Source: Clostridia bacterium (GTDB lineage Bacteria > Bacillota > Clostridia > UBA1212 > DUPL01). Taken from it: a stretch of DNA of 64,000 nt. Of the stretch, positions 1 to 37,095 are shown piece after piece. Positions within the stretch are counted from its first letter, which is position 1, and every line of letters starts with the position of its first letter. The position numbers and the translations under genes were made by a program. The stretch covers positions 1 to 64,000 of the forward strand of contig JBMNIW010000012.1 of assembly GCA_050951325.1 (NCBI GenBank). The letters run 5' to 3'. Under the pieces are notes generated by a model, which was given only the letters and a program-made list of their open reading frames with translations, was not told where the DNA came from and did no database searches.

Positions 1-61
1 TACGAAGACTAACTATTAAAAGTCAAGGTCTAAAATAAAAAATTTGAAAAAAAGTTCGCCG

Positions 62-184
62 CCCTTGACAAACAGCATTCAGATGCTAAAAAACGCAAGC
101 GAGGGCGACGGAGAGAATAGCAAAGCAAGCCCAACAACCCTCGCAAAAAAATCGTAGCATCTGAATGCTTCGGTTTGTCAAGGG
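62..184. repeat. Long imperfect inverted repeat in the IS110 downstream end
   Basis: cccttgacaaac-agcattcagatgcta (62-88) pairs with tagcatctgaatgct-tcg-gtttgtcaaggg (155-184), with an inner gcgaggg/ccctcgc stem. Confidence 0.85.
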
Positions 185-225
185 TACGCTGCGCCGGCTG
201 GCTTGTAATTTAATTTAGCTCAGGC

Positions 226-1410
226 TCAAGAGAGAATAGCAGTTGGACTGTATGTTTCTCCTGTTGTTTCAAGGTGATATAAAACTCTCACAAGCTTTTT
301 TGCTGCATGTGAAAGTGCAACGTAGTAGTGCTTACCCTCAGAACGTTTCTTTTGAAGATACGCCGCAAAGGTTGGCTCCCAATTGCAAACATAAGCAGCA
401 GCATTGAGCAGTGCCCATCTAAGATATCTTGAACCGCGTTTTTCCATCTTTGCATGGGAAGAGTATAGCTGCCCCGATTGATATGTAGACGGAGAACAAC
501 CTGCAAAAGCAAGTATTTTGTCTGCACTGTCAAAGCGAGAAAAATCACCAATCTCGGCAATAATCATTGCCCCGAGATTCTGACCAATACCGGGAACCCC
601 AAGGATTGGCGAATCAATAGCATCCATAATCTTTTTAATCTCAGCTTCGATTTCGGTTATCTCTAAGGTAATCTCACGAATAAGCTTGATGGTATGTTTT
701 AGCTCCAATGATTTGGCCGGAAGATAAGAACTAATAGATTTTCTCGCAGCTTCACGAATTTCGTCTGCTGTAACTCTTTTAAAGCGACCTTTGGATGAAG
801 TGTTCAGCAAATGTGTAAGATGCTTTAGGTTTGCGGATGCAATGTGCTGGGCACTTGGAAATTCCAATAAAAGCTCATAAACAGCCTTTCCGTGCAGCGT
901 GGATACAAGAGTTTCAAGTTCAGGAAAAAGTATGTTTACAAGCCTTGATACCGATTGCTTCAACTTTGCTCTTTGCATAACTTTATCAAATCTGTATCTT
1001 GTTAATGACTTTAAATCTTCGTTGTGGTACAATTTGTCTGAGTAGGGCTTTAAGCTCACGTCAGACATTATCATACTTGCAATTGTACGAGCATCTACCT
1101 TGTCTGTTTTTGTTTTACGCAGACTGATGCTTTTCCGGCTTAGACTGGTGTACAGCGGATTGATTACGATGGTTGGTAGACCTTTGTTTTTCAAAAATCC
1201 GAGAATGTTGCAGCTGTAGTGTCCCGTGGCTTCAAGTCCTACTTTTACGTTGCCCGAATCTTTCTCTGCACTCTTGATTTTGAACAGCAAGTCTTCAAAG
1301 CCATCCATGTTGTTTTGTATGGTAAATACATCATACAAAATTTCGCCGTCGGAGTTTGCAATAAAGCAGTCGTGCTTGTCCTTTGCAACGTCGATTCCGA
1401 CATAAACCAT
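226..1410 (-). CDS. IS110 family transposase/recombinase (DEDD RuvC-like plus Tnp_20 domain)
   Basis: VGIDVAK, GLEATGHY, KTDKVDA, PGIG and YQSG...KRG motifs. Start taken at MVYVGID (1410) after GGGGGT rather than 1461. Confidence 0.95.
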   Translation of the reverse strand: MVYVGIDVAKDKHDCFIANSDGEILYDVFTIQNNMDGFEDLLFKIKSAEKDSGNVKVGLEATGHYSCNILGFLKNKGLPTIVINPLYTSLSRKSISLRKTKTDKVDARTIASMIMSDVSLKPYSDKLYHNEDLKSLTRYRFDKVMQRAKLKQSVSRLVNILFPELETLVSTLHGKAVYELLLEFPSAQHIASANLKHLTHLLNTSSKGRFKRVTADEIREAARKSISSYLPAKSLELKHTIKLIREITLEITEIEAEIKKIMDAIDSPILGVPGIGQNLGAMIIAEIGDFSRFDSADKILAFAGCSPSTYQSGQLYSSHAKMEKRGSRYLRWALLNAAAYVCNWEPTFAAYLQKKRSEGKHYYVALSHAAKKLVRVLYHLETTGETYSPTAILS

Positions 1411-1663
1411 AATTGATACCCCCAAGTAATTTTTGATGCTGTATCGGATTCCACAGAACACTTTACGTCTTGTAACCTCGTTCTAAATAAACCGTCTCGC
1501 ATCTCCATTTGCTGCGGTATCTAACTAATTAACAAACTCGTAAAGGGCTGTGGTCGGAGCCTCCTTGAAACCGTCAAGCGGTAGGAAAAATGACCAATCC
1601 ACAGCATCCTATACAGTATAGCAGATTTCTTCGTTCTTGGAGAGGAACTATAAAAACTACTAC
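1411..1663 (-). ncRNA. Candidate IS110 bridge RNA (upstream non-coding end)
   Basis: Two stem/internal-loop/stem domains (1547-1605 and 1461-1545). Loop sequences match the target flank and the element ends (see findings). Boundaries approximate. Confidence 0.7.
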
Positions 1664-1687
1664 TTTTATATTATACGAGGAATTTTT

Positions 1688-2104
1688 ATGGCATTCACTA
1701 CTTACGGCAGCACACAGGTGCTAAGCGGACTCATTGGCAGGAGCAGCACAGGGCCTCTCTCAAACTGCTATATTGCGCTTAGCACCACGGCTCCCAATGC
1801 GGACGGAACGAACTTCACGGAACCTTCGTCAGCGGCGGGATATGCGAGAGCGATTATCGGGCTTTCCGGAACAAGCGCGACGCAGGTCATGTCAGCACCC
1901 GCCGCAGGCTCCACATCCAACACCAGCATCATCTTCTTTCCGGAAGCGACTGCGTCCTGGGGAACGGTTACCCACTTCGGTCTCTATACAGCGCAGACCG
2001 GAGGCAACCTGGTGCTTTACGGAACGCTTACCAACCCCATCGCAGTAGCGGCAAATTATGTTCCGCTGTTCCGTGTCGGCAACTTCTCGCTCACGCTTTC
2101 ATAA
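1688..2104 (+). CDS. Phage tail-associated protein
   Basis: YIALSTTAP...GYAR...FPEATASWGTVTHFGLY...GGNL pattern recalled from siphophage tail proteins. RBS GAGG before ATG 1688. Upstream of holin-like genes. Confidence 0.7.
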   Translation: MAFTTYGSTQVLSGLIGRSSTGPLSNCYIALSTTAPNADGTNFTEPSSAAGYARAIIGLSGTSATQVMSAPAAGSTSNTSIIFFPEATASWGTVTHFGLYTAQTGGNLVLYGTLTNPIAVAANYVPLFRVGNFSLTLS

Positions 2105-2116
2105 GGAGGAATATCA

Positions 2117-2272
2117 ATGGATGAAAAGAAAAAGGAGCCGAAGTATCTCGACCTGTCGGCTCACGCGGAAGTAAATCTCGAAGAACTGCTCGAGCGGTTG
2201 ATGCCTCCGAAACATCCGAAACCATCGGAAACCCCGGACAAGGAGGCAAAAGAAAATGACGGTAACAACTGA
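2117..2272 (+). CDS. Small hypothetical phage protein, 51 aa (MDEKKKEPKYLDLS...)
   Basis: Strong AAGGAGG RBS; open frame overlapping the next start; below the ORF-track cutoff. Confidence 0.6.
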   Translation: MDEKKKEPKYLDLSAHAEVNLEELLERLMPPKHPKPSETPDKEAKENDGNN

Positions 2273-2525
2273 AACCATTATTACTGTGGCATCGATTATA
2301 ACCTCGCTTGTGGTTATTTTCGGTGCTATTTTTACGATTTACCGCTGGTATCTGAAACAGGAGAAGCAGGACAAGGACATCAAGGATATTAAAGAAGAGC
2401 AGCTTATCCTCACAATGGGTGTTCTTGCCTGCCTCAAGGGTCTCAAGGAGCAGGGCTGCGACGGTCCTGTTACGGATGCCATCGCCAGTATTGAAGCTCA
2501 CATAAACAAACAGGCACATAAATAA
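2256..2525 (+). CDS. Small single-TM phage membrane protein (holin-associated)
   Basis: N-terminal TM helix then a charged coiled segment; AAGGAGG RBS; coupled to the next gene. Confidence 0.6.
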   Translation: MTVTTETIITVASIITSLVVIFGAIFTIYRWYLKQEKQDKDIKDIKEEQLILTMGVLACLKGLKEQGCDGPVTDAIASIEAHINKQAHK

Positions 2526-2827
2526 TGGAGGAAAAAACCATGACAGACATAATGACCATACCCGCAATTGCGGCGATAGTTTACACTATAATTGATATTA
2601 CAAAAACCGCTTGCGGTGGTGACGAAAAGTTCAAACGCTTCATTCCGCTCTTCTCCGCTCTGCTCGGCGCCGTATTAGGCGTCGTTTCTTTTTACGCTGT
2701 TCCGGGGGTGGTTGAAACGCAGAACATCCTCGTGGCGATTGTGATGGGAGCCGCAAGCGGGCTCTCTGCGACAGGGACGAATCAGGCAGTGAAGCAGCTG
2801 ACGAAGGGCGGGAGCAAGCCTGACTAA
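2525..2827 (+). CDS. Putative phage holin
   Basis: Three hydrophobic segments and GAASGLSATG.NQ motif with basic C-terminus. True start may be 2540 after GGAGG. Confidence 0.7.
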   Translation: MEEKTMTDIMTIPAIAAIVYTIIDITKTACGGDEKFKRFIPLFSALLGAVLGVVSFYAVPGVVETQNILVAIVMGAASGLSATGTNQAVKQLTKGGSKPD

Positions 2828-2848
2828 GTAAATAAAAACTCCTCAAAC

Positions 2849-2887
2849 AAAGCCTACCGTGGATTATTTCTGTGGTAGGCTTTTTTG
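2849..2887 (+). terminator. Rho-independent terminator after the holin
   Basis: agcctacc...ggtaggct stem followed by a T-tract. Confidence 0.8.
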
Positions 2888-2950
2888 TCTCAATGCACCA
2901 AACAAAGCGAATAAAAGCGAAGATAATTCTACCTATTATGGTGCAGCTGT

Positions 2951-2991
2951 TATCACTTATACCCTTGATAAATCTCGTGTTATAAGTGATA
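2951..2991. promoter_or_regulatory. Perfect 11-bp inverted repeat over the probable recombinase-operon promoter
   Basis: tatcacttata-N19-tataagtgata, enclosing TTGATA, 40 bp before the first recombinase start. Confidence 0.5.
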
Positions 2992-3030
2992 TATATGTAT
3001 AGAAACTTTAAAAAAAGGAGCTGTAAAGAA

Positions 3031-3927
3031 ATGAAAAACAGACCACGTCGGGTAGCGGTTTACTGCCGTGTCAGCACTCTCGCCGAGTCACAGGAGGAGT
3101 CCTTTGAAACACAGTGCGCCGCATACGAAAAGATGATCTCAAACGACCCGAAACTTGAGCTTGTACGTGTCTACGGAGATAGGGGAATATCGGGAGCAAC
3201 CATGAAGCACAGACCGGAGTTTATGCAGATGATGGAGGACTGCGAGGGCGGGAAAATTGACCTCATTATAACAAAAAGCATCTCACGCTTTGCCAGAAAC
3301 CTTGCCGATTGCATGGATACCGTTCGCCGCCTTCGGGAGCTTGGCATCTCGGTACTCTTCGAGCGGGAGGGAATCGATACCATGAGCGGTAGCGGGGAGA
3401 TGCTGCTCTCAGTACTTGCCTCCATTGCACAGGAGGAAATCAACAACATGAGCCAGAATATCCGCTGGGCAGCCGAGCGGAACAATGCCTCCGGCAACCC
3501 TACCACTCCCGCACGGTACGGTTACCGTAAAGAACGCAAAGGAACAAAACATATATGGATAATCAACGAGCCTGAGGCACGTAGGGTTCGGTATGCTTTC
3601 GAGAAAGCTGAGGCGGGCTGGAAGTACTGTAAAATTCGCCGGGGGCTTGACGCAATGGAGGCAGCCGAGGGGACTGGGGTTAAGTGGACGCAGTCTCGTT
3701 TATACGGCATGCTTCGCAGTGAGAATTATATCGGCGACATACTGACGAGCAAGCGTTTCAAGCCCGACTATCTGCAAAAGCGGAGCCTGCCCAACAAAGG
3801 TCAGCACCCTCAATATTATATCGAGGGGCATCACGAGGCGATTATAGAAAAAGAGCAGTTTCGGCGGGTGGCGGAACGGATTAAAAATGAAAGGAATAGA
3901 AAAAATGAGCAGAAAACCAACGATTGA
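3031..3927 (+). CDS. Large serine recombinase 1 (resolvase plus recombinase domains, no zinc ribbon)
   Basis: YCRVST catalytic motif, ITKSISRFARN, HHEAII. AAGGAG RBS before ATG 3031. Confidence 0.92.
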   Translation: MKNRPRRVAVYCRVSTLAESQEESFETQCAAYEKMISNDPKLELVRVYGDRGISGATMKHRPEFMQMMEDCEGGKIDLIITKSISRFARNLADCMDTVRRLRELGISVLFEREGIDTMSGSGEMLLSVLASIAQEEINNMSQNIRWAAERNNASGNPTTPARYGYRKERKGTKHIWIINEPEARRVRYAFEKAEAGWKYCKIRRGLDAMEAAEGTGVKWTQSRLYGMLRSENYIGDILTSKRFKPDYLQKRSLPNKGQHPQYYIEGHHEAIIEKEQFRRVAERIKNERNRKNEQKTND

Positions 3928-5404
3928 GGTTATACAGCGGCAAAAGGCAGTAGGCACTACCACAGGCACAAAACCACAGAAAAAGCGTGTTGCCGCCTAC
4001 TGCCGTGTCAGCACTGAATATGAAGAGCAGCAGAGCAGTCTTGAGATACAGATGTCGGCTTTCCGTGAGCAGATTGACGCACGACCTGACTGGAAGCTAG
4101 CGGGGATATACGCCGACCGTGGGATAAGCGGAACACAGGTACAAAACCGCACAGAGTTTCTGCGAATGATGGAGGACGCTGAGAATGGTCTTATAGATTA
4201 TATCATTACAAAGAGTATCAGCCGTTTTGCACGGAACACCCTTGAGTGTCTTTCCTATGTGCGTCACCTGAGGGAGATGGGAGTGTTCGTATATTTTGAA
4301 AAAGAGCGGCTGGACACGAGTAGCAGCACCTCCGAGATGCTACTCTCCATCCTTGCCGCCGTTGCACAGGAGGAGAGCCGGAACATATCCGAGAACATAA
4401 AGTGGAGTCAGCGAAAGCGGTACGCCGAGGGTAAGCCTAAGTGGTCGGCTGTCTACGGTTACCAAAAGATTGGCGAGATAGAGTATATCATAGACGAAGA
4501 ACGTGCCACAGTTGTCAGGCGCATTTTCGCAGAGTATATTTTGGGCGCATCCCTGCCTGAGATATCACGGGGGCTTGCAAGAGATGGCATTTCCTCCGCA
4601 ACAGGCAAGTCCTGGTCTCCCACGGTTCTCGCAAAGATACTCAGAAACGAAAAATACTGCGGCGACGTTCTGATACAGAAAACTTACACGGTTGACCACA
4701 TAACACAAAAACGAGTAGTAAACGACCAAGCAGTTGTGCCCAGCTATTATGTGCGGGACCATCACAAAGCCATAATAGACCGAAAGACCTTCGAGACAGC
4801 ACAAGTTATTCTCTCCCTAAAAAACCGTCACAAGGGGGCGACACAGTACCCGTATTACGGGCGGCTTGCCTGCCCTGTCTGCGGCGAACAAATGGTCAGG
4901 AGCTGCATTCGTGAGCATGGTCACCCGCCGGTCTGGCGGTGCTGCGGGGAAAGCCGATGCCGAGCATATTTTATTAAAGAAAAGTATATTGACAGTGCCT
5001 TCTGCACAGCATATTCTGAGTTGGACACAGAGGCTCTTGAGAGGCAGGCACGGCGGCGTGACGAGAAAATATCAGGGGCGGCACGGGTGGCAATTGGACT
5101 CAAAGAAAAGCTGCCACAGATTGACAGGGTTGAGTATTATCTGCTTGACGCACTTGTGGATCGCATTGTATTTCCGAAGTGGGACACGATGGTGGTTGAG
5201 TGGACTTTTGGGCTTAAAAGTCGGGTGAGGATAGAATACCTAAGAGAAAGTGATATTCCGAACCACAAGGAGCAGCTGAGGTCTGTTGGAAGCCGAAGCC
5301 TGTCTCGGATTGAGGATCGACAAGGAAAAACACTCTCCCCCACGGTGTTTGAGCGTCCTTGTATTTATGGATATGACAGTATTGTGGAAGGAGGGCTACA
5401 ATGA
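3905..5404 (+). CDS. Large serine recombinase 2 with zinc ribbon
   Basis: YCRVST, SISRFARN, CPVCG...WRC. Overlaps both neighbours. Confidence 0.92.
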   Translation: MSRKPTIEVIQRQKAVGTTTGTKPQKKRVAAYCRVSTEYEEQQSSLEIQMSAFREQIDARPDWKLAGIYADRGISGTQVQNRTEFLRMMEDAENGLIDYIITKSISRFARNTLECLSYVRHLREMGVFVYFEKERLDTSSSTSEMLLSILAAVAQEESRNISENIKWSQRKRYAEGKPKWSAVYGYQKIGEIEYIIDEERATVVRRIFAEYILGASLPEISRGLARDGISSATGKSWSPTVLAKILRNEKYCGDVLIQKTYTVDHITQKRVVNDQAVVPSYYVRDHHKAIIDRKTFETAQVILSLKNRHKGATQYPYYGRLACPVCGEQMVRSCIREHGHPPVWRCCGESRCRAYFIKEKYIDSAFCTAYSELDTEALERQARRRDEKISGAARVAIGLKEKLPQIDRVEYYLLDALVDRIVFPKWDTMVVEWTFGLKSRVRIEYLRESDIPNHKEQLRSVGSRSLSRIEDRQGKTLSPTVFERPCIYGYDSIVEGGLQ

Positions 5405-21424: not shown

Positions 21425-22240
21425 TTACAGGTTATATTTTTCTTTATATGCTTTGAATGAGAGCATCTCGCGATATGCCCGCCGTCCGTGCCGCATCCAT
21501 TTCATTTTCTGCGTGAATGTGAGCGCACACTGTTTGATTCTAAAGGCAAAATACAGCATCCACACACCCGTAGTCTTGGGATGGACAGCACAGTAAAATG
21601 CACCCTTTGCAAAAAAATATTTTTCATCTTTTCCGGTAAACCAGGATGACTTTTCAAACGATACATGACCAATGGTCTCTTTGGAAACATAGAACACCAG
21701 TCCGGCCTTGCGCAGAGCCATTAAAAACATACTGTCTTCACCGGAAGGAAATAACGCGCCTCCTCCGAAAAGAGGCGTAAACCAGGCATTAGCTCTTCTT
21801 ACCGAATTTAAGCGAAAAGCGACTCGAATAGCCCCCCACGGGATGCCTTTCCATCGTGGCCATTTTTTTGTTTTTTTATATTTCTGCTGAAGTCTGGCCG
21901 AATCATCCGTTTCCAAATGAAATATGATGACATCCACGTCGGGATGGGCATCAAACTCCGCCATGACCCGTTCGGCCATATCGTCATGATACCTTACGTC
22001 ATCGTCTGCCAATAGGCATATTTCCGCGCTCGCATACAAAAGTGCCAGATTCCGGTTAATCCCCACCCCTCTTGTTTGGGTCGAGATCATTTTGGCAGTA
22101 AAACCTTCGAAAGTGTATTCTTCATATGAAGTGTGGTCAGATTGATTTGCAAAAACCACATCGGAATGAATATTCATTTCTTTTATTTTCGAAAAATCCT
22201 TTTGATGCATTGTTACACATAATACTTCAAATTTTTTCAT
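21425..22240 (-). CDS. Glycosyltransferase family 2
   Basis: RGVGINRN, ADDD, GEDS. Confidence 0.85.
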   Translation of the reverse strand: MKKFEVLCVTMHQKDFSKIKEMNIHSDVVFANQSDHTSYEEYTFEGFTAKMISTQTRGVGINRNLALLYASAEICLLADDDVRYHDDMAERVMAEFDAHPDVDVIIFHLETDDSARLQQKYKKTKKWPRWKGIPWGAIRVAFRLNSVRRANAWFTPLFGGGALFPSGEDSMFLMALRKAGLVFYVSKETIGHVSFEKSSWFTGKDEKYFFAKGAFYCAVHPKTTGVWMLYFAFRIKQCALTFTQKMKWMRHGRRAYREMLSFKAYKEKYNL

Positions 22241-23072
22241 TTATCTTCTCCAGATATTCTTTATAATCTCTTTCAGTATCATAGATCATGGCATGAACGA
22301 AAGCATTTCTTTTTTCTATGCTTGGCAGCTTCATGTAATCGCCGTATCTGTAAACGAGATAATCTCTAATTTTATCCGATCCCATTAAAACTGTGTCCTC
22401 AAATGGTACGTCAACCGGCACAGAAAAAAATGAAGAATCAAACAGTCCGCTTCTGAATTTTGCCGGCGTTATCCAATAGCAGTATTTAAAATTCTTTGTC
22501 ATGCCATCATAGTGATAAATCCGCTTATACGCTACTTTTGCCATCCATTTACATGGCAAGAACCGGAGGGATTTCAATACCAACACCTGCCCTTTGGTTT
22601 TTGGTTTCCAATTTCGCTGGGAAAGGCCATACAATGTTACAAATTTTGATTCAAGGTATACGAGTCTTTGAAGCAGGCGGTTATTGGGCACCTTATGTAA
22701 AATCATAATGTCAACATAAATACCATGATGCATATCCGTCCGATTCTTGAATTGCTCTTCTATAAAAGTGGTACCGTTCATGCGGACTTTGGCGTATTCC
22801 AAATATTCCGGAACAGTTTTCCACTCTTGGAGAACAAACCGGCTGTCGTTGTCCGATAGCATTACCGCCTTGAATTTTTCATATTGATCCGGGGTCATGA
22901 AAATATCCAGGTCGTCATCCCATGGAATGAACCCACCATGGCGAACCGCCCCGAGTGCTGTGCCACCCATGATGAAATACTGAATATTATGTATCCGGCA
23001 AAGACCATCAACATATTTTGCAATTTGTAATATCTTTTTCTGAACAGATTTAATATCTTGATTTTTAGGCAT
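22227..23072 (-). CDS. licD: LicD-family phosphotransferase
   Basis: GGTALGAVRHGGFIPWDDDLDI and YGDYMKLP. Confidence 0.9.
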   Translation of the reverse strand: MPKNQDIKSVQKKILQIAKYVDGLCRIHNIQYFIMGGTALGAVRHGGFIPWDDDLDIFMTPDQYEKFKAVMLSDNDSRFVLQEWKTVPEYLEYAKVRMNGTTFIEEQFKNRTDMHHGIYVDIMILHKVPNNRLLQRLVYLESKFVTLYGLSQRNWKPKTKGQVLVLKSLRFLPCKWMAKVAYKRIYHYDGMTKNFKYCYWITPAKFRSGLFDSSFFSVPVDVPFEDTVLMGSDKIRDYLVYRYGDYMKLPSIEKRNAFVHAMIYDTERDYKEYLEKINEKI

Positions 23073-34866: not shown

Positions 34867-34917
34867 TTATTTTACCATAAATTCTGGACTTGTAAAGCCC
34901 TTTTTAGTCTTTATTAT
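34867..34917. repeat. 51-bp target-site duplication, left copy (right copy 36953-37003)
   Basis: ttattttaccataaattctggacttgtaaagccctttttagtctttattat at both positions. Confidence 0.95.
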
Positions 34918-36952
34918 CCCTAGTTTAACAGTTGATATTTCAATTTAAATTGCATAAATGCCCTAAATAACGCCAACTTAGCGCCTTTTTTTATGTCAAA
35001 TAATTTTCATTTTTCTGTTGTATAATGTAGTAGAATATGGTATAATATAACTGATTACTATCAGGAGGTGCTGTTGGATGTTTTTGAAAGTTACCAAACT
35101 GAAAAACGGCAAAATCAATTTAAGTTTTGTTGAAGGTTATCGTGACCCTGCAACCAAAAAAGTCAAACATAAGCTGGTTGAGAATTTGGGCTATCTGGAT
35201 GAATATCTTGACCGTTACGAGGATCCAATAGCACATTTTAAAGAGATTGCACGCATTCGCACCCAGGAACTTAACGAGGAAAAAAGGAAAAAGGAAATAT
35301 TTCTGGGTACTATTTCTGAAGACGAGACCATGGAAGTGAACGAAGATTCCTTGCAGCACATGGGATTCCTTCCTCTAAGCTCAATTTACCATCAGTTAAA
35401 AATCGACAAATTCATTATCAATCGTCAACGAAGCCTGTCCATGGATTATTCGCTAAACGATGTTATGCAATTGTTGGTGTATACAAGGATTCTATCTCCA
35501 GGGTCCAAGATAGACAGTTACAGACAAAAAGAACGTATGGCTAAAGATTTCAAATGTGATTGGTATGATGTTTATCGTGCATTGGACTATTTTGCATCTT
35601 TTCGAGATGACCTTCTCCTCCATCTTCACGAGCAGGTCAGAATCAACTATCAACGTAAAACTGATGTTGTCTTTTATGATGTCACAAACTTTTACTTTGA
35701 GATTGATAAAGAGGATGAATTTCGTCGCAAGGGTTATTGCAAGCACAATACACGAAATCCGCTAGTGCAAATGGGACTGCTTCTTGATTCTGATGCTATT
35801 CCAATAGCGTATCAGTTATTTAAAGGGAACACCCATGACAGTCAGACAATGATGCCGCTGTTGCATAAAATACGTGCCAGTTATGGACTGGGTAGAATAA
35901 TTACCGTAGCAGACAAAGGATTGAATAGCGGAGACAACATCGCATTTCTCATGGCCAAAGGAGATGGATTCATATTCTCTCAGAAAATACGGGGAGCTTC
36001 CAAAGATCTGCAAGACTATGTTTTTGATCAGTCAGGATATGTAGATGTGCACGGGATAGTAAAACATGCTGATTCATGGAACGAAAGAAATGGCAACCAA
36101 GACAGCGGATTGTTCCGCATGAAATCACGACTATATCCACAGGAATTCTGGGTAACTCATGCAGATGATGTCAAACGCAAAATACCGTTGGATGTAAAAC
36201 AGATTGTATGTTACAACGAGCTTTATGCAAGACGCCAGAAGCACAAGAGGGCTGAACTTATTGCCAAGGCCAAAAGAATCATAGAAAATCCCAAACGCTA
36301 TGATAAGAGTGAGGCAGGTGGGGCATTACGATATGTAAAAAACATTGAATATGACCCGGAAACTGGTGAGTACATTAAAACCAGGCGTTTACCCAGCCTG
36401 GATGAAGACAGGATTGCGGAAGACGAAAAATATGATGGCTACTATGCAATCATTACAAGCGAACTGGATATGCCAGACCATGATGTCGTCAAAGCATATC
36501 ACGGTCTTTGGGAGATAGAACATAGTTTCAGGATTACTAAAAGCGATATTGAAGCCAGACCTGTTAATGTTACACTCGAGCAAAGGATAGATGCCCACTT
36601 TCTTACATGTTTCATAGCCTTGCTAGTCTTAAGACTTTTGTGTAAACGACTGGACGGAAAGTATGCCCCTGAACAGGTAATCAAATCTTTGAGAAATTAT
36701 CAGGTTTGTTGGATTAAGGACAATGTATACAAGGCAACCTACTATGACCAAATACTAAAAGATTTGGGTGAGGATTTGAATTTGAGACTGGATAGACGCT
36801 TCCTAAAAGCAGGCGACATCAGGCAACTAATTGCAAATACCAAAAAGTGACCATAAATACACAACATTTTTCTGAAATAAACAAAACCTCACAAACCCAC
36901 TAATTACAAGGGTTTATGGAGGTTTTTTTTAATTCTAACTGTTAAACTCAAG
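34918..36952 (+). mobile_element. IS1634-family element, 2035 bp
   Basis: IR core AGTTTAACAGTT at both ends; flanked by identical 51-bp direct repeats. Confidence 0.92.
35078..36850 (+). CDS. IS1634 transposase (DDE)
   Basis: FYDVTNFYFE, GNTHD, VADKG, YDGY, WEIEHSFRITK. Confidence 0.95.
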   Translation: MFLKVTKLKNGKINLSFVEGYRDPATKKVKHKLVENLGYLDEYLDRYEDPIAHFKEIARIRTQELNEEKRKKEIFLGTISEDETMEVNEDSLQHMGFLPLSSIYHQLKIDKFIINRQRSLSMDYSLNDVMQLLVYTRILSPGSKIDSYRQKERMAKDFKCDWYDVYRALDYFASFRDDLLLHLHEQVRINYQRKTDVVFYDVTNFYFEIDKEDEFRRKGYCKHNTRNPLVQMGLLLDSDAIPIAYQLFKGNTHDSQTMMPLLHKIRASYGLGRIITVADKGLNSGDNIAFLMAKGDGFIFSQKIRGASKDLQDYVFDQSGYVDVHGIVKHADSWNERNGNQDSGLFRMKSRLYPQEFWVTHADDVKRKIPLDVKQIVCYNELYARRQKHKRAELIAKAKRIIENPKRYDKSEAGGALRYVKNIEYDPETGEYIKTRRLPSLDEDRIAEDEKYDGYYAIITSELDMPDHDVVKAYHGLWEIEHSFRITKSDIEARPVNVTLEQRIDAHFLTCFIALLVLRLLCKRLDGKYAPEQVIKSLRNYQVCWIKDNVYKATYYDQILKDLGEDLNLRLDRRFLKAGDIRQLIANTKK

Positions 36953-37095
36953 TTATTTTACCATAAATTCTGGACTTGTAAAGCCCTTTTTAGTCTTTAT
37001 TATGAAGAATATTAAATTTTGTGTTGCAAACATCAAAAAAACCTGATAACATATAGAAAAAATTACGATGCAAAATTAGTAAGAGGAAGACGAAA

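What the first reader, a model, noticed from the sequence alone, without database searches (positions are those of the whole stretch)
6..1690. IS110 bridge RNA whose target loop appears to read ribosome-binding sites
Seen: the upstream non-coding end folds into two domains. Domain 1 (RNA): GGUC [AUUUUUCCU] ACCG..CGGU [UUCAAGGAGGCUCC] GACC. Domain 2: CUUUACG..[UAGUUAGAU] ACCG..CGGU [UUAUUUAGAACGAG]..CGUAAAG. Domain 2 loops match the element's own ends: ctaacta at 1521-1527 equals 9-15, and ACGAG equals 1675-1679. The domain 1 top loop (plus strand aggaaaaat, 1583-1591) matches the flank aggaatttt (1678-1686) at 6 of 9 positions and ends in CU. The reconstructed empty site is tacgaAGgaatttttATG, the RBS of the next gene. 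Known: IS621 bridge RNAs have target- and donor-binding loops around a CT core. Inference: this element targets Shine-Dalgarno-like sites (about GGAGGAAAAAT), landing between genes while keeping the RBS.
Basis: partly seen in the sequence, partly recalled or inferred. Interest (0 to 1): 0.8.

Follow-up and report, generated by a model that had tools for sequence, protein, structure and literature searches.

The report
IS110 element that lands in ribosome-binding sites
This is an intact jumping gene of the IS110 family whose guide RNA, like that of about a hundred relatives in gut and digester Clostridia and their phages, spells out a ribosome-binding site, so these elements insert just ahead of genes and leave a usable ribosome-binding site behind.

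Summary
Window 8-1677 is an intact IS110-family insertion sequence. The transposase lies on the minus strand (226-1410) and has the DEDD and Ser catalytic residues. A two-loop bridge RNA lies at 1418-1607 on the minus strand. The element sits in the Shine-Dalgarno (SD) sequence of a prophage gene whose ATG is at 1688.

Its idea that the target loop reads ribosome-binding sites holds for the whole family:
- In 78 non-redundant relatives with both flanks, each element's own guides match its flanks at 10.4 of 15 positions, against 6.8 for other members' guides (0 of 10000 permutations).
- The reconstructed empty sites have the consensus GAAAGGAG.
- 70 of 90 sites have a start codon 5-20 nt downstream with a long open frame, always antisense to the transposase. 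On the other side of the element the figure is 6 of 83.
- IS-free versions of two sites exist: phage FP_Taranis, and a metagenome contig.
- SD strength is kept after insertion.

The window's own copy is the weak case. Its guides match its flank no better than family background, and the contig starts 7 nt beyond the element.

IS900 and IS901 were already known to insert between SD and start codon. I found no paper that links this behaviour to bridge RNA loops. Verdict: a new member of a known kind, moderately interesting.

The parts
6..7 (.). Core dinucleotide AG (CT on the element's strand) at the right-end junction. Only positions 1-5 of the outside flank are visible.
   Evidence: The same CT follows the right end in 99-100% of 83 relatives.
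8..225 (-). Right end (RE). It holds the left-donor sequence at its tip (8-17), the hexamer TTGACT (26 to 21 on the minus strand) and an interrupted 27-bp inverted repeat (62-88 / 155-184). Terminator-like hairpins with T runs lie after the transposase stop.
   Evidence: The terminal 20 nt are nearly invariant in about 130 loci. Inverted repeat. Terminator-like sites at 77-54 on the minus strand.
226..1410 (-). IS110-family transposase/recombinase, 394 aa, intact.
   Evidence: PF01548 (1.7e-38) and PF02371 (1e-21). NF033542 'IS110 family RNA-guided transposase', 203.6 bits against a cut-off of 140. It aligns to the IS621 structure 8wt6 (E 1.1e-21); D7, E60, D103, D106 and S312 lie opposite IS621 D11, E60, D102, D105 and S241.
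1418..1607 (-). Bridge RNA: target-binding loop domain (about 1547-1605), donor-binding loop domain (about 1461-1545) and a small 3' hairpin (1439-1456).
   Evidence: Covariance model R1, built from 98 relatives: 154.6 bits, E 3e-33, the only hit in the genome. 30 pairs are 94.9% paired, and 14 pairs have changes on both sides. 0 of 500 shuffles reach this; slid controls give 33-45%.
1583..1592 (-). Left target guide (RNA CAUUUUUCCU). It has the same sense as the left target and ends in the core CU.
   Evidence: Own-flank agreement in the family at non-core positions 1-8 is 0.97 to 0.45, against 0.93 to 0.31 for other members' guides.
1561..1570 (-). Right target guide (RNA UUUCAAGGAG), the reverse complement of the right target. 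It ends in AG and is followed by GC, a putative handshake guide (1559-1560).
   Evidence: Own-flank agreement at non-core positions 1-5 is 0.96 to 0.65, against 0.59 to 0.33; beyond that there is no signal.
1519..1527 (-). Left donor guide (RNA UAGUUAGAU). UAGUUAG equals the tip of the RE (window 9-15 on the other strand).
   Evidence: The loop is nearly invariant in the family, as is the RE tip.
1477..1481 (-). Right donor guide (RNA ACGAG), complementary to the core plus the first 3 nt of the left end.
   Evidence: Covaries with the left-end start in relatives: ACGAG/CTCGT 83, ACAAG/CTTGT 7, AGTAG/CTACT 2, ACTAG/CTAGT 2. Three loci have one mismatch.
1411..1677 (-). Left end (LE). The hexamer TATAAT lies at 1675 to 1670 on the minus strand. 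Together with the RE's TTGACT it would form a 17-nt-spaced promoter only when RE and LE are joined in a circle. TGcTATACT lies just upstream of the bridge RNA.
   Evidence: Read directly. The spacing was counted by hand. The consensus scan finds no two-hexamer promoter in the integrated state.
1678..1679 (.). Core dinucleotide AG at the left-end junction.
1680..2104 (+). Left target: the rest of the SD and the spacer (1680-1687), then the target gene (ATG 1688, 138 aa), a phage structural protein.
   Evidence: PF23140 Gp80, 7.4e-28. PHROG 240 head protein, 1.4e-17. The anti-SD duplex of the rebuilt junction is -5.9 kcal/mol.

Best explanation
Window 8-1677 is an intact, probably still mobile IS110-family insertion sequence. 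Its transposase runs antisense to a prophage structural gene, and the element has split that gene's Shine-Dalgarno sequence.

The left end encodes an IS621-type bridge RNA with two internal loops. The donor loop pairs with the joined RE-LE ends of the excised circle. That junction also assembles a TTGACT-17-TATAAT promoter. The target loop pairs with both strands of a target centred on CT, which reads AG on the gene's strand.

In this element and in over 100 relatives from Clostridia and their phages, the target loop spells an SD sequence. The family consensus is GAAAG-GAG. In the window, the loop codes the reverse complement of 1561-1570 followed by 1583-1592. These elements therefore integrate 10-16 nt ahead of a start codon, in one orientation only. 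The last bases of the left end plus the duplicated core rebuild an SD for the gene.

**Shown here**
- The domains and catalytic residues.
- The RNA structure, by covariation.
- Covariation of the guides with target and donor.
- SD-plus-start-codon context, orientation bias, empty sites and preserved SD strength.

**Inferred by homology to IS621**
- That the RNA is made.
- The serine/DEDD strand-exchange chemistry and the circular intermediate.
- Handshake pairing, as the reason why AGG is invariant.
For: **Family membership.**

**RNA.** CM hit of 154.6 bits; 14 of 30 pairs have compensatory changes; 0 of 500 shuffles reach the observed values.

**Target covariation.**
- 78 sites gave an own-guide mean of 10.4 of 15, against 6.8 for other guides; 0 of 10000 permutations reach this.
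- The element's own guide is unbeaten at 47 of 78 sites.

**Donor covariation.** 94 of 102 parsed loci have a right donor guide complementary to core+3 in one of the four main pairs, across four different donor variants.

**SD context.**
- The empty-site consensus is GAAAGGAG, with A100, G99 and G96 at core+1, from 78 sites.
- 70 of 90 sites have a start codon (65 ATG) at +5 to +20 and an open frame, against 2715 of 19604 random positions and 6 of 83 on the RE side.
- 88 of 92 target loops code an SD-strength 15-mer.

**Distant clade.** Transposases at 38-44% identity carry the same RNA (30-83 bits). 13 of 13 distinct left flanks have the start-codon complement 7-12 nt from the core, and 16 of 18 right flanks start CTCC.

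**Empty sites.**
- FP_Taranis has ...GGGAGGTGA, 5 nt, then the TTG start, uninterrupted, where phage Roos carries the element.
- A contig of run X1 runs IS-free into window 1677.

**SD kept.** Mean anti-SD duplex is -9.7 before and -9.2 after insertion, against -3.1 at random positions.

**Recent activity.** Pieces 99% or more identical occur in 20 runs of 13 studies, with at least 4 different outside flanks at the RE.
Against: **The window's own copy does not show the rule.**
- Left guide versus flank is 4 of 8 non-core positions.
- Right guide versus the 5 visible bases is 2 of 5.
- Both are at family background.
- The right side rises to 4 of 5 only if the X1 empty site is taken as the ancestral flank.

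**Assembly and copy number.**
- The contig begins 7 nt outside the element, although the assembly resolves four rRNA operons.
- Only one copy is in the assembly.
- None of the 25 sites with 2 or fewer mismatches to the coded target is occupied.

**No evidence that the RNA is made.**
- RNA-run contigs do not cover 1535-1593.
- They cannot show strand.
- The single-sequence fold has z -0.99, and the MFE pairs the two guides with each other.

**Limits of the family statistics.**
- 20 of 90 sites lack an ORF of 60 or more codons, though several of these show SD plus ATG with a short frame.
- The loci are relatives, so the permutation figures overstate independence.
- 35 of 144 elements could not be parsed by the anchors and were left out of the counts.
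Confidence: 0.85

Rival explanations
1. SD-likeness is a by-product, not an aim. Mechanistic constraints fix the core CT plus a neighbouring C, needed for handshake pairing with the invariant donor loop, which gives AGG. Purine-rich guides then happen to find SDs, because in these genomes AGGAG mostly occurs there. Purifying selection removes insertions elsewhere.
For: - AGG is invariant whatever the guide: left position 1 agrees 0.97 with the own guide and 0.93 with other guides.
- The only loci whose target has T instead of C next to the core (L054, L055, L120) also changed the base after the donor guide's core from G to A.
- 20 of 90 sites lack a long ORF.
- In G000, only 57 of 158 near-matches to the coded target precede an ORF.
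Against: - Guide positions outside AGG are also SD-like: G72, A71, A78 before the core and A78, G82 after AGG, in 92 loops.
- Two clades put the core at different offsets within the SD, yet both hit an SD.
- There is a strict orientation bias: 70 of 90 against 6 of 83.
- The left-end tip rebuilds the SD. This suggests adaptation to the site, not mere tolerance of it.
Confidence: 0.2
2. The window's copy did not reach its present surroundings by its own guides. It could be an off-target or 'half-match' insertion. Alternatively the sequence left of it was replaced by recombination between two copies. A third possibility is that the first 5-7 bases are an assembly edge effect. This is compatible with the main explanation for the family.
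For: - The guide-flank match is at background.
- The visible left flank differs from the IS-free contig of run X1 at 4 of 5 bases.
- That upstream flank is not found in G000: the best match is 16 of 18, at an unrelated place.
- The contig starts here although rRNA repeats are resolved.
- Half-match insertion is reported for IS621 (abstract of 10.64898/2026.08.31.748434).
Against: - Related phages differ in this RBS region; run X6 has another variant. So the window's phage may simply have had a different left half.
- Only 5 bases are visible.
- 10 of 78 relatives also score 8 or less of 15 with their own guides.
Confidence: 0.35
3. The folded region is only a 5' leader of the transposase mRNA (an attenuator or translational control element), not a guide RNA.
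For: - It lies directly upstream of the transposase.
- A small conserved hairpin sits between it and the transposase RBS (helix 5).
- There is no direct RNA evidence.
Against: - The loop segments covary with DNA outside the element (target) and with its ends (donor). A leader has no reason to do this.
- The architecture and strand rules equal those described for IS621 (passages of PMC11208160).
Confidence: 0.03

Closest known systems
IS621 (E. coli) and its bridge RNA (Durrant et al. 2024, PMC11208160; Hiraizumi et al. 2024, PMC11208158). I read passages of both.
   Same: - DEDD RuvC-like domain plus a Tnp domain with the catalytic Ser.
- The ncRNA lies in the left end and has two internal loops.
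[quoted passage not shown]
- The CT core is included in all four pairings.
- The left guide is about 9 nt and the right guide 4-7 nt.
- The promoter is split across the RE-LE junction.
   Different: - The transposase is only distantly related: E 1e-21 over two stretches, and 394 aa against 326 aa.
- The target is an SD sequence ahead of genes, not a REP element.
- The donor loop's left guide ends AU where the core would pair.
- Function is untested here.
IS900 / IS901 of Mycobacterium avium (IS110 family).
   Same: They are reported to insert upstream of genes, between the SD and the start codon. PMC2942039 says so, citing Doran 1997 and Inglis 2003 (passage read). PMC8141618 describes the hed ORF on the strand opposite the transposase (passages read). 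The distant clade here (L147-L168) has the same layout: SD complement on the right flank and start-codon complement on the left flank.
   Different: - The original IS900 and IS901 papers were not available to me. Their consensus target is only recalled and is not quoted here.
- There is no hed-like ORF here: the longest plus-strand ORF inside the element is 65 aa.
- In the window's clade the cut lies inside the SD rather than after it.
- No paper in the library holds both 'bridge RNA' and 'IS900'.
ISPpu9 / ISPpu10 and other REP-targeting IS110 elements; IS1111-group elements with seekRNA (PMC11187229; PMC12288879). Abstracts and search listings only, plus passages of PMC11187229.
   Same: RNA-guided choice of a short repeated genomic motif as landing site.
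   Different: - Those motifs are extragenic palindromes, attC sites or transposon ends.
- In the IS1111 group the guide RNA lies downstream of the transposase.
- Here the motif is a functional translation signal present at thousands of genes.

Membership tests
IS110 family (IS110 group) insertion sequence | Transposase with an N-terminal DEDD RuvC-like domain and a C-terminal Tnp domain carrying the conserved Ser. | tested here: met
   PF01548 and PF02371. NF033542 above its cut-off. D7, E60, D103, D106 and S312 align with the IS621 catalytic residues.
IS110 family (IS110 group) insertion sequence | No terminal inverted repeats and no target-site duplication beyond a short core present at both junctions. 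| tested here: met
   CT flanks both ends in the window (6-7 and 1678-1679 on the other strand) and in 99-100% of relatives. The ends ACTAACTA... and ...TATACG are unrelated to each other.
IS110 family (IS110 group) insertion sequence | Long non-coding left end upstream of the transposase and a short right end, with promoter halves split between RE and LE. | tested here: met
   LE is 267 nt and RE is 218 nt. TTGACT in the RE tip and TATAAT in the LE tip would lie 17 nt apart in a joined form (read). Promoter activity was not tested.
Bridge RNA (IS621 type) | Two stem-loops, each with an internal loop, supported by covariation. | tested here: met
   94.9% of cells paired, and 14 of 30 pairs changed on both sides. 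CM R1. There is no Rfam family match at E of 1 or less.
Bridge RNA (IS621 type) | Target-loop segments covary with the left target (same sense) and the right target (complement), core included. | tested here: met
   (78-93 sites; 0 of 10000 permutations). The window's own copy is at background only.
Bridge RNA (IS621 type) | Donor-loop segments match the element's own ends. | tested here: met
   Window: UAGUUAG equals the RE tip, and ACGAG is the complement of core plus LE start. The right donor guide covaries across 4 donor variants. The left donor guide and RE tip are almost invariant, so that side is uninformative.
Bridge RNA (IS621 type) | The RNA is expressed and needed for recombination; the loops are reprogrammable. 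| not testable with these tools
   Only contigs of RNA runs were available. They have no cover of 1535-1593 and give no strand.
SD-targeting IS110 elements (IS900-like behaviour) | Insertion in or just after the SD of a gene, in one orientation relative to the gene. | tested here: met
   In the window the ATG lies 9 nt after the core and the transposase is antisense to the gene.
SD-targeting IS110 elements (IS900-like behaviour) | An ORF on the strand opposite the transposase that borrows the host's translation signals (hed). | tested here: not met
   No plus-strand ORF longer than 65 aa lies within 8-1677, and stop codons follow the RE junction directly.

The most novel reading that the evidence does not exclude
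A large branch of the IS110 family uses the Shine-Dalgarno sequence as a genome-wide, degenerate landing pad read by RNA. This branch covers at least two clades down to 38% transposase identity, in Clostridia and their phages.
- The core and a handshake base fix AGG.
- The programmable positions drift within SD space, plus a few unique neighbouring bases.
- The left guide is in effect a copy of the 16S anti-SD tail: 66 of 85 distinct left guides share a run of 5 nt or more with it.
- The element's left tip is shaped to rebuild the SD.

Insertion would therefore be nearly harmless to translation, while the transposase stays antisense to host transcription. On this reading, the old IS900 observation and these elements are one phenomenon explained by bridge RNA guides.
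Probability: 0.55. Interest if true: 0.7.

Novelty: new member of a known kind. Interest (0 to 1): 0.55.

Why it matters
- **A mechanism for an old observation.** It gives a concrete RNA-based mechanism for why some IS110 elements sit between ribosome-binding site and start codon. It also shows the habit is widespread in gut and digester Clostridia and in their phages.
- **A different kind of target.** A guide RNA is tuned here to a class of functional sites present at thousands of genes, rather than to one repeat. This bears on how such elements balance spread against harm, and on off-target behaviour of bridge recombinases.
- **Annotation.** An IS of this clade ahead of a gene need not mean the gene is silenced.
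- **Engineering.** These orthologues are natural candidates for promoter-less insertion at gene starts.

Tried and rejected
- **Rfam.** No family matched 1-3000 at E of 1 or less, apart from one chance-level sRNA hit outside the element.
- **Single-sequence folding.** Not significant.
- **Consensus promoter scan.** No two-hexamer promoter for the RNA in the integrated state.
- **hed-like ORF.** None.
- **Same-site hypothesis.** The gene after the element in phage Roos is not homologous to the window's gene (E 2.3), so these are independent sites.
- **Other copies in the genome.**
  - blastn found one copy plus an 83% RE-like fragment on C8.
  - The CM found one hit.
- **Near-matches to the coded target in G000.**
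  - 158 sites have 3 or fewer mismatches, and 57 of them precede an ORF.
  - Ten shuffled patterns gave 1147 hits, 236 before an ORF.
  - This is a modest enrichment, no site is occupied, and the result is not decisive.
- **Contig ends.**
  - C6 ends in the five bases coded by the right target guide.
  - The chance of this is about 2% over 24 ends.
  - I could not follow it further.
- **Upstream flank of the X1 empty site.** Not found in G000.
- **RNA runs.**
  - Contigs of one metatranscriptome (X14) cover much of the transposase and the RE junction.
  - They do not cover 1535-1593.
  - Contigs show neither strand nor ends, so nothing follows for expression of the bridge RNA.
- **Flanks of near-identical copies in the runs.** They could not be tied to particular target-loop variants, because the contigs break between them.
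- **IS900 consensus target.** I could not verify it in the library, so it is not quoted.
- **Supplements.** Supplementary tables of the bridge RNA papers may list target motifs for this clade.
- **Literature searches for prior linkage.** Searches found none.
Full report
**What is at the coordinates**

The window is the first 64 kb of contig C12 of a 3.08-Mb, 12-contig genome. Position 1 of the window is the end of the contig.

- On the minus strand, 226-1410 encodes a 394-aa protein with the two IS110 domains: PF01548 at 1.7e-38 and PF02371 at 1e-21.
- NCBIfam calls it 'IS110 family RNA-guided transposase' (203.6 bits, cut-off 140).
- It aligns to the solved IS621 recombinase (8wt6, E 1.1e-21). 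D7, E60, D103, D106 and S312 lie opposite the IS621 residues D11, E60, D102, D105 and S241, which Hiraizumi et al. showed to be essential.
- The next gene on the plus strand (ATG 1688) is a phage structural protein (Gp80 family, 7.4e-28; PHROG head protein).
- A holin and two serine integrases follow it. The element therefore sits near one end of a prophage.

**Ends of the element**

Phage Roos (PP479939) carries a 68.6%-identical element. Phage FP_oengus carries a 231-bp derivative that lacks the transposase.

Comparison with these and with 141 further loci fixes the ends. On the element's strand the left end starts CGTAT(A/T)AT and the right end stops ...CTTGACTTTTAATAGTTAGT. Each abuts a CT.

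In the window the element is 8-1677, with AG (the complement of CT) at 6-7 and at 1678-1679.

The RE tip holds TTGACT and the LE tip holds TATAAT. If the ends were joined through one core, the two hexamers would be 17 nt apart. This is the split promoter described for IS621 (passage). The spacing is read, and promoter activity was not tested.

**The RNA**

I aligned 98 distinct sequences of the region (A1) and counted a six-helix structure on them.
- 94.9% of cells are paired.
- 14 of 30 pairs have changes on both sides.
- 0 of 500 shuffles reach the observed values.
- Slid controls give 33-45% paired.

The basal helix of the first domain is CUGUGG/CCACAG plus UUGG/CCAA.

A covariance model built from A1 scores the window at 154.6 bits (1418-1607, minus strand). 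That is the only hit in the genome.

Rfam 15 has no matching family. The single-sequence fold is not better than shuffles (z -0.99), and it pairs the two guides with each other.

**Guides, target and donor**

Simple anchors parsed the target loop in 109 of 144 elements. The 35 left out are truncated loci, the FP_oengus derivative, L060, L158 and the distant clade. Of the 109, 107 are non-redundant.

| Side | Positions | Agreement with own guide | Agreement with other members' guides |
|---|---|---|---|
| 5' loop segment vs left flank (same sense) | 8 non-core | 0.97, 0.92, 0.83, 0.71, 0.69, 0.56, 0.55, 0.45 | 0.93, 0.61, 0.59, 0.35, 0.37, 0.33, 0.29, 0.31 |
| 3' loop segment (reverse complement) vs right flank | 5 non-core | 0.96, 0.90, 0.80, 0.72, 0.65 | 0.59, 0.56, 0.49, 0.35, 0.33 |

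Beyond those five right-side positions there is no signal.

Over the 78 sites with both flanks, the own-guide mean is 10.4 of 15 against 6.8 for other guides. No permutation out of 10000 reaches this, and the own guide is unbeaten at 47 of 78 sites. The loci are relatives, so these figures overstate independence.

On the donor side, the 3' segment of the second loop is complementary to the core plus the first three bases of the left end. It changes with them: four different pairs occur, with 83, 7, 2 and 2 loci, and three loci have one mismatch.

These strand rules and guide lengths are those described for IS621.

**What the target is**

Read on the strand opposite the transposase, the 78 reconstructed empty sites have the consensus GAAAGGAG. 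The core A and G and the following G are present in 100%, 99% and 96% of sites.

- **Gene start downstream.**
  - 70 of 90 sites with enough flank have a start codon 5-20 nt after the core A, followed by at least 60 open codons.
  - 65 of these start codons are ATG, and most lie at +10 to +16.
  - The same holds for only 2715 of 19604 random flank positions and for 6 of 83 sites on the other side of the element.
  - Several of the 20 failures show SD plus ATG with a short frame.
- **Upstream context.** A co-directional ORF ends within 150 nt upstream at 46 of 80 sites. Many insertions are therefore inside gene arrays.
- **Guides alone spell an SD.**
  - 88 of 92 distinct loops code a 15-mer that pairs with the 3' tail of this genome's own 16S rRNA at -6 kcal/mol or better (mean -10.9).
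  - The same holds for 759 of 1840 shuffles (mean -5.7).
  - 66 of 85 distinct left guides share a run of 5 nt or more with that tail.
- **Second clade.**
  - A clade with only 38-44% transposase identity carries the same RNA (30-83 bits).
  - All 13 distinct left flanks have the start-codon complement 7-12 nt from the core.
  - 16 of 18 right flanks begin CTCC.
  - This clade therefore inserts right after GGAG, between the SD and the start codon.

**Empty sites**

Phage FP_Taranis has the homologue of the Roos target locus without the element. It reads ...GGGAGGTGA, then five bases, then the annotated TTG start of gp67. The two Roos junctions share exactly these halves.

For the window's own gene, a 2252-nt contig of run X1 matches window 1677-1760 (2 differences in 84) and is preceded by ...ACATAAAAG instead of the element. 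Run X6 holds a further IS-free variant with ...ACAGGAGGATTTTAAC before the start codon.

**The SD survives**

The left-end tip is AATACG in 71 loci and TATACG in 18, out of 103 loci counted. Together with the duplicated core it restores a purine run. The mean anti-SD duplex energy is -9.72 kcal/mol for empty sites, -9.20 after insertion and -3.09 for random flank 22-mers. 68 of 78 sites are at -6 or better both before and after insertion, against 9 of 75 random 22-mers. The window's rebuilt junction is weaker, at -5.9.

**The window's own copy**

Its two guides code an SD-like target: the reverse complement of 1561-1570, then 1583-1592 sharing AG.

Its present flanks fit poorly:
- 4 of 8 non-core positions on the left.
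- 2 of 5 on the right, where only five bases are visible.
- Both are at the family's other-guide background.

With the X1 empty site as the ancestral flank, the right side fits 4 of 5.

The assembly resolves four complete 16S genes, so a contig that starts 7 nt outside a 1.7-kb element is odd. The X1 upstream flank is not in the assembly. I cannot tell a divergent phage from an off-target insertion, an IS-mediated rearrangement or an assembly edge effect. Half-match insertion is reported for IS621 (abstract).

The element is probably recently active.
- Pieces at 99% identity or more occur in 20 runs of 13 studies, from anaerobic digesters, sludge and bioreactors.
- Contigs identical to the RE over 165-172 nt lead into at least four different outside flanks.
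- Those contigs could not be linked to particular loop variants, which do exist: differences at 1567, 1586, 1587 and 1590.

**Mechanism**

By homology to IS621, the most likely course has four steps:
1. The element excises as a circle.
2. The joined ends create a strong promoter for the bridge RNA and the transposase.
3. A recombinase tetramer holds the RNA, whose donor loop pairs with the junction and whose target loop pairs with an SD site.
4. Ser312 and the DEDD site exchange strands at the CT core.

One inference of mine concerns the C next to the core, which gives AGG on the gene's strand. It is nearly invariant. I think this is because it must also pair, after strand exchange, with the G that follows the donor guide's core (the handshake position in IS621). 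The only loci with T at that target position (L054, L055, L120) have A at that RNA position. This is one evolutionary event, so it is a hint only.

**Comparison with what is known**

The element meets all testable defining features of an IS110 element with an IS621-type bridge RNA. Expression and reprogrammability were not testable here.

Insertion ahead of genes between the SD and the start codon is on record for IS900 and IS901:
- PMC2942039 says so, citing Doran 1997 and Inglis 2003 (passage read).
- The title of Doran 1997 appears in three reference lists.
- PMC8141618 describes the hed ORF (passages).

I did not see the original papers. Unlike IS900, there is no hed-like ORF here.

In the held library, no paper holds both 'bridge RNA' and 'IS900'. 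Searches combining IS110 or bridge RNA with ribosome binding site or Shine-Dalgarno found nothing on this point. The main text of Durrant et al. names REP elements as targets and does not mention ribosome-binding sites.

**Verdict**

The element is a new member of a known kind.

Noticed in passing
L027 2503-2733 (phage FP_oengus NC_047916, about 22146-22376): A 231-bp derivative of the Roos-type element. It keeps the RE tip, the target-loop region and the LE tip, but has no donor loop and no transposase. It is flanked by AG on both sides and sits in the SD (GGGAGGTGA) of gp40. It looks like a non-autonomous, MITE-like form.
   Followed up: partly
G000 C8:268685-268731; also L007, L008, L010, L017, L020, L022, L023: An RE-tip-like fragment (83% over 47 nt) with no element attached lies on contig C8. 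In addition, 30-nt matches at 90-97% to window 5-36 occur in genomes of other genera. These could be solo ends, diverged relatives or remnants.
   Followed up: no
window 62-88 / 155-184: An interrupted 27-bp inverted repeat lies in the RE, downstream of the transposase stop. Phage Roos keeps it with a G-to-A and C-to-T double change. It may be a terminator or a small RNA; an sRNA gene downstream of the transposase is described for ISPpu9 (abstract of PMC12288879).
   Followed up: no
window 1-7: The contig begins 7 nt outside the element although the assembly resolves four complete 16S genes. The five outside bases resemble the start of the element's own left end shifted by one base.
   Followed up: partly
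G000 C6, last 9 bases: Contig C6 ends in the five bases that the window's right target guide codes. It may be the flank of a second, unassembled copy, or it may be chance (about 2%).
   Followed up: no
window 34916-36956: Another insertion sequence of about 2.04 kb, with a 590-aa DDE_Tnp_1 transposase. Three further copies at 97-99% identity lie on C1, C4 and C6, and a partial copy lies on C5.
   Followed up: partly
window 2986-3927 and 3887-5404: Two serine recombinase (phage integrase-like) genes lie in tandem and overlap by 41 nt, next to the holin.
   Followed up: no
window 1637-2104: A TTG at 1637 inside the left end is in frame with the phage gene and would add 17 residues. It is probably without meaning.
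   Followed up: no
L037, L039-L041, L046, L051, L053, L063, L065 and others, between the LE tip and the bridge RNA: Many relatives at about 70% identity carry an extra 60-70 nt in the left end with its own palindrome (CATAGTC...GACTATG). The window lacks it.
   Followed up: no
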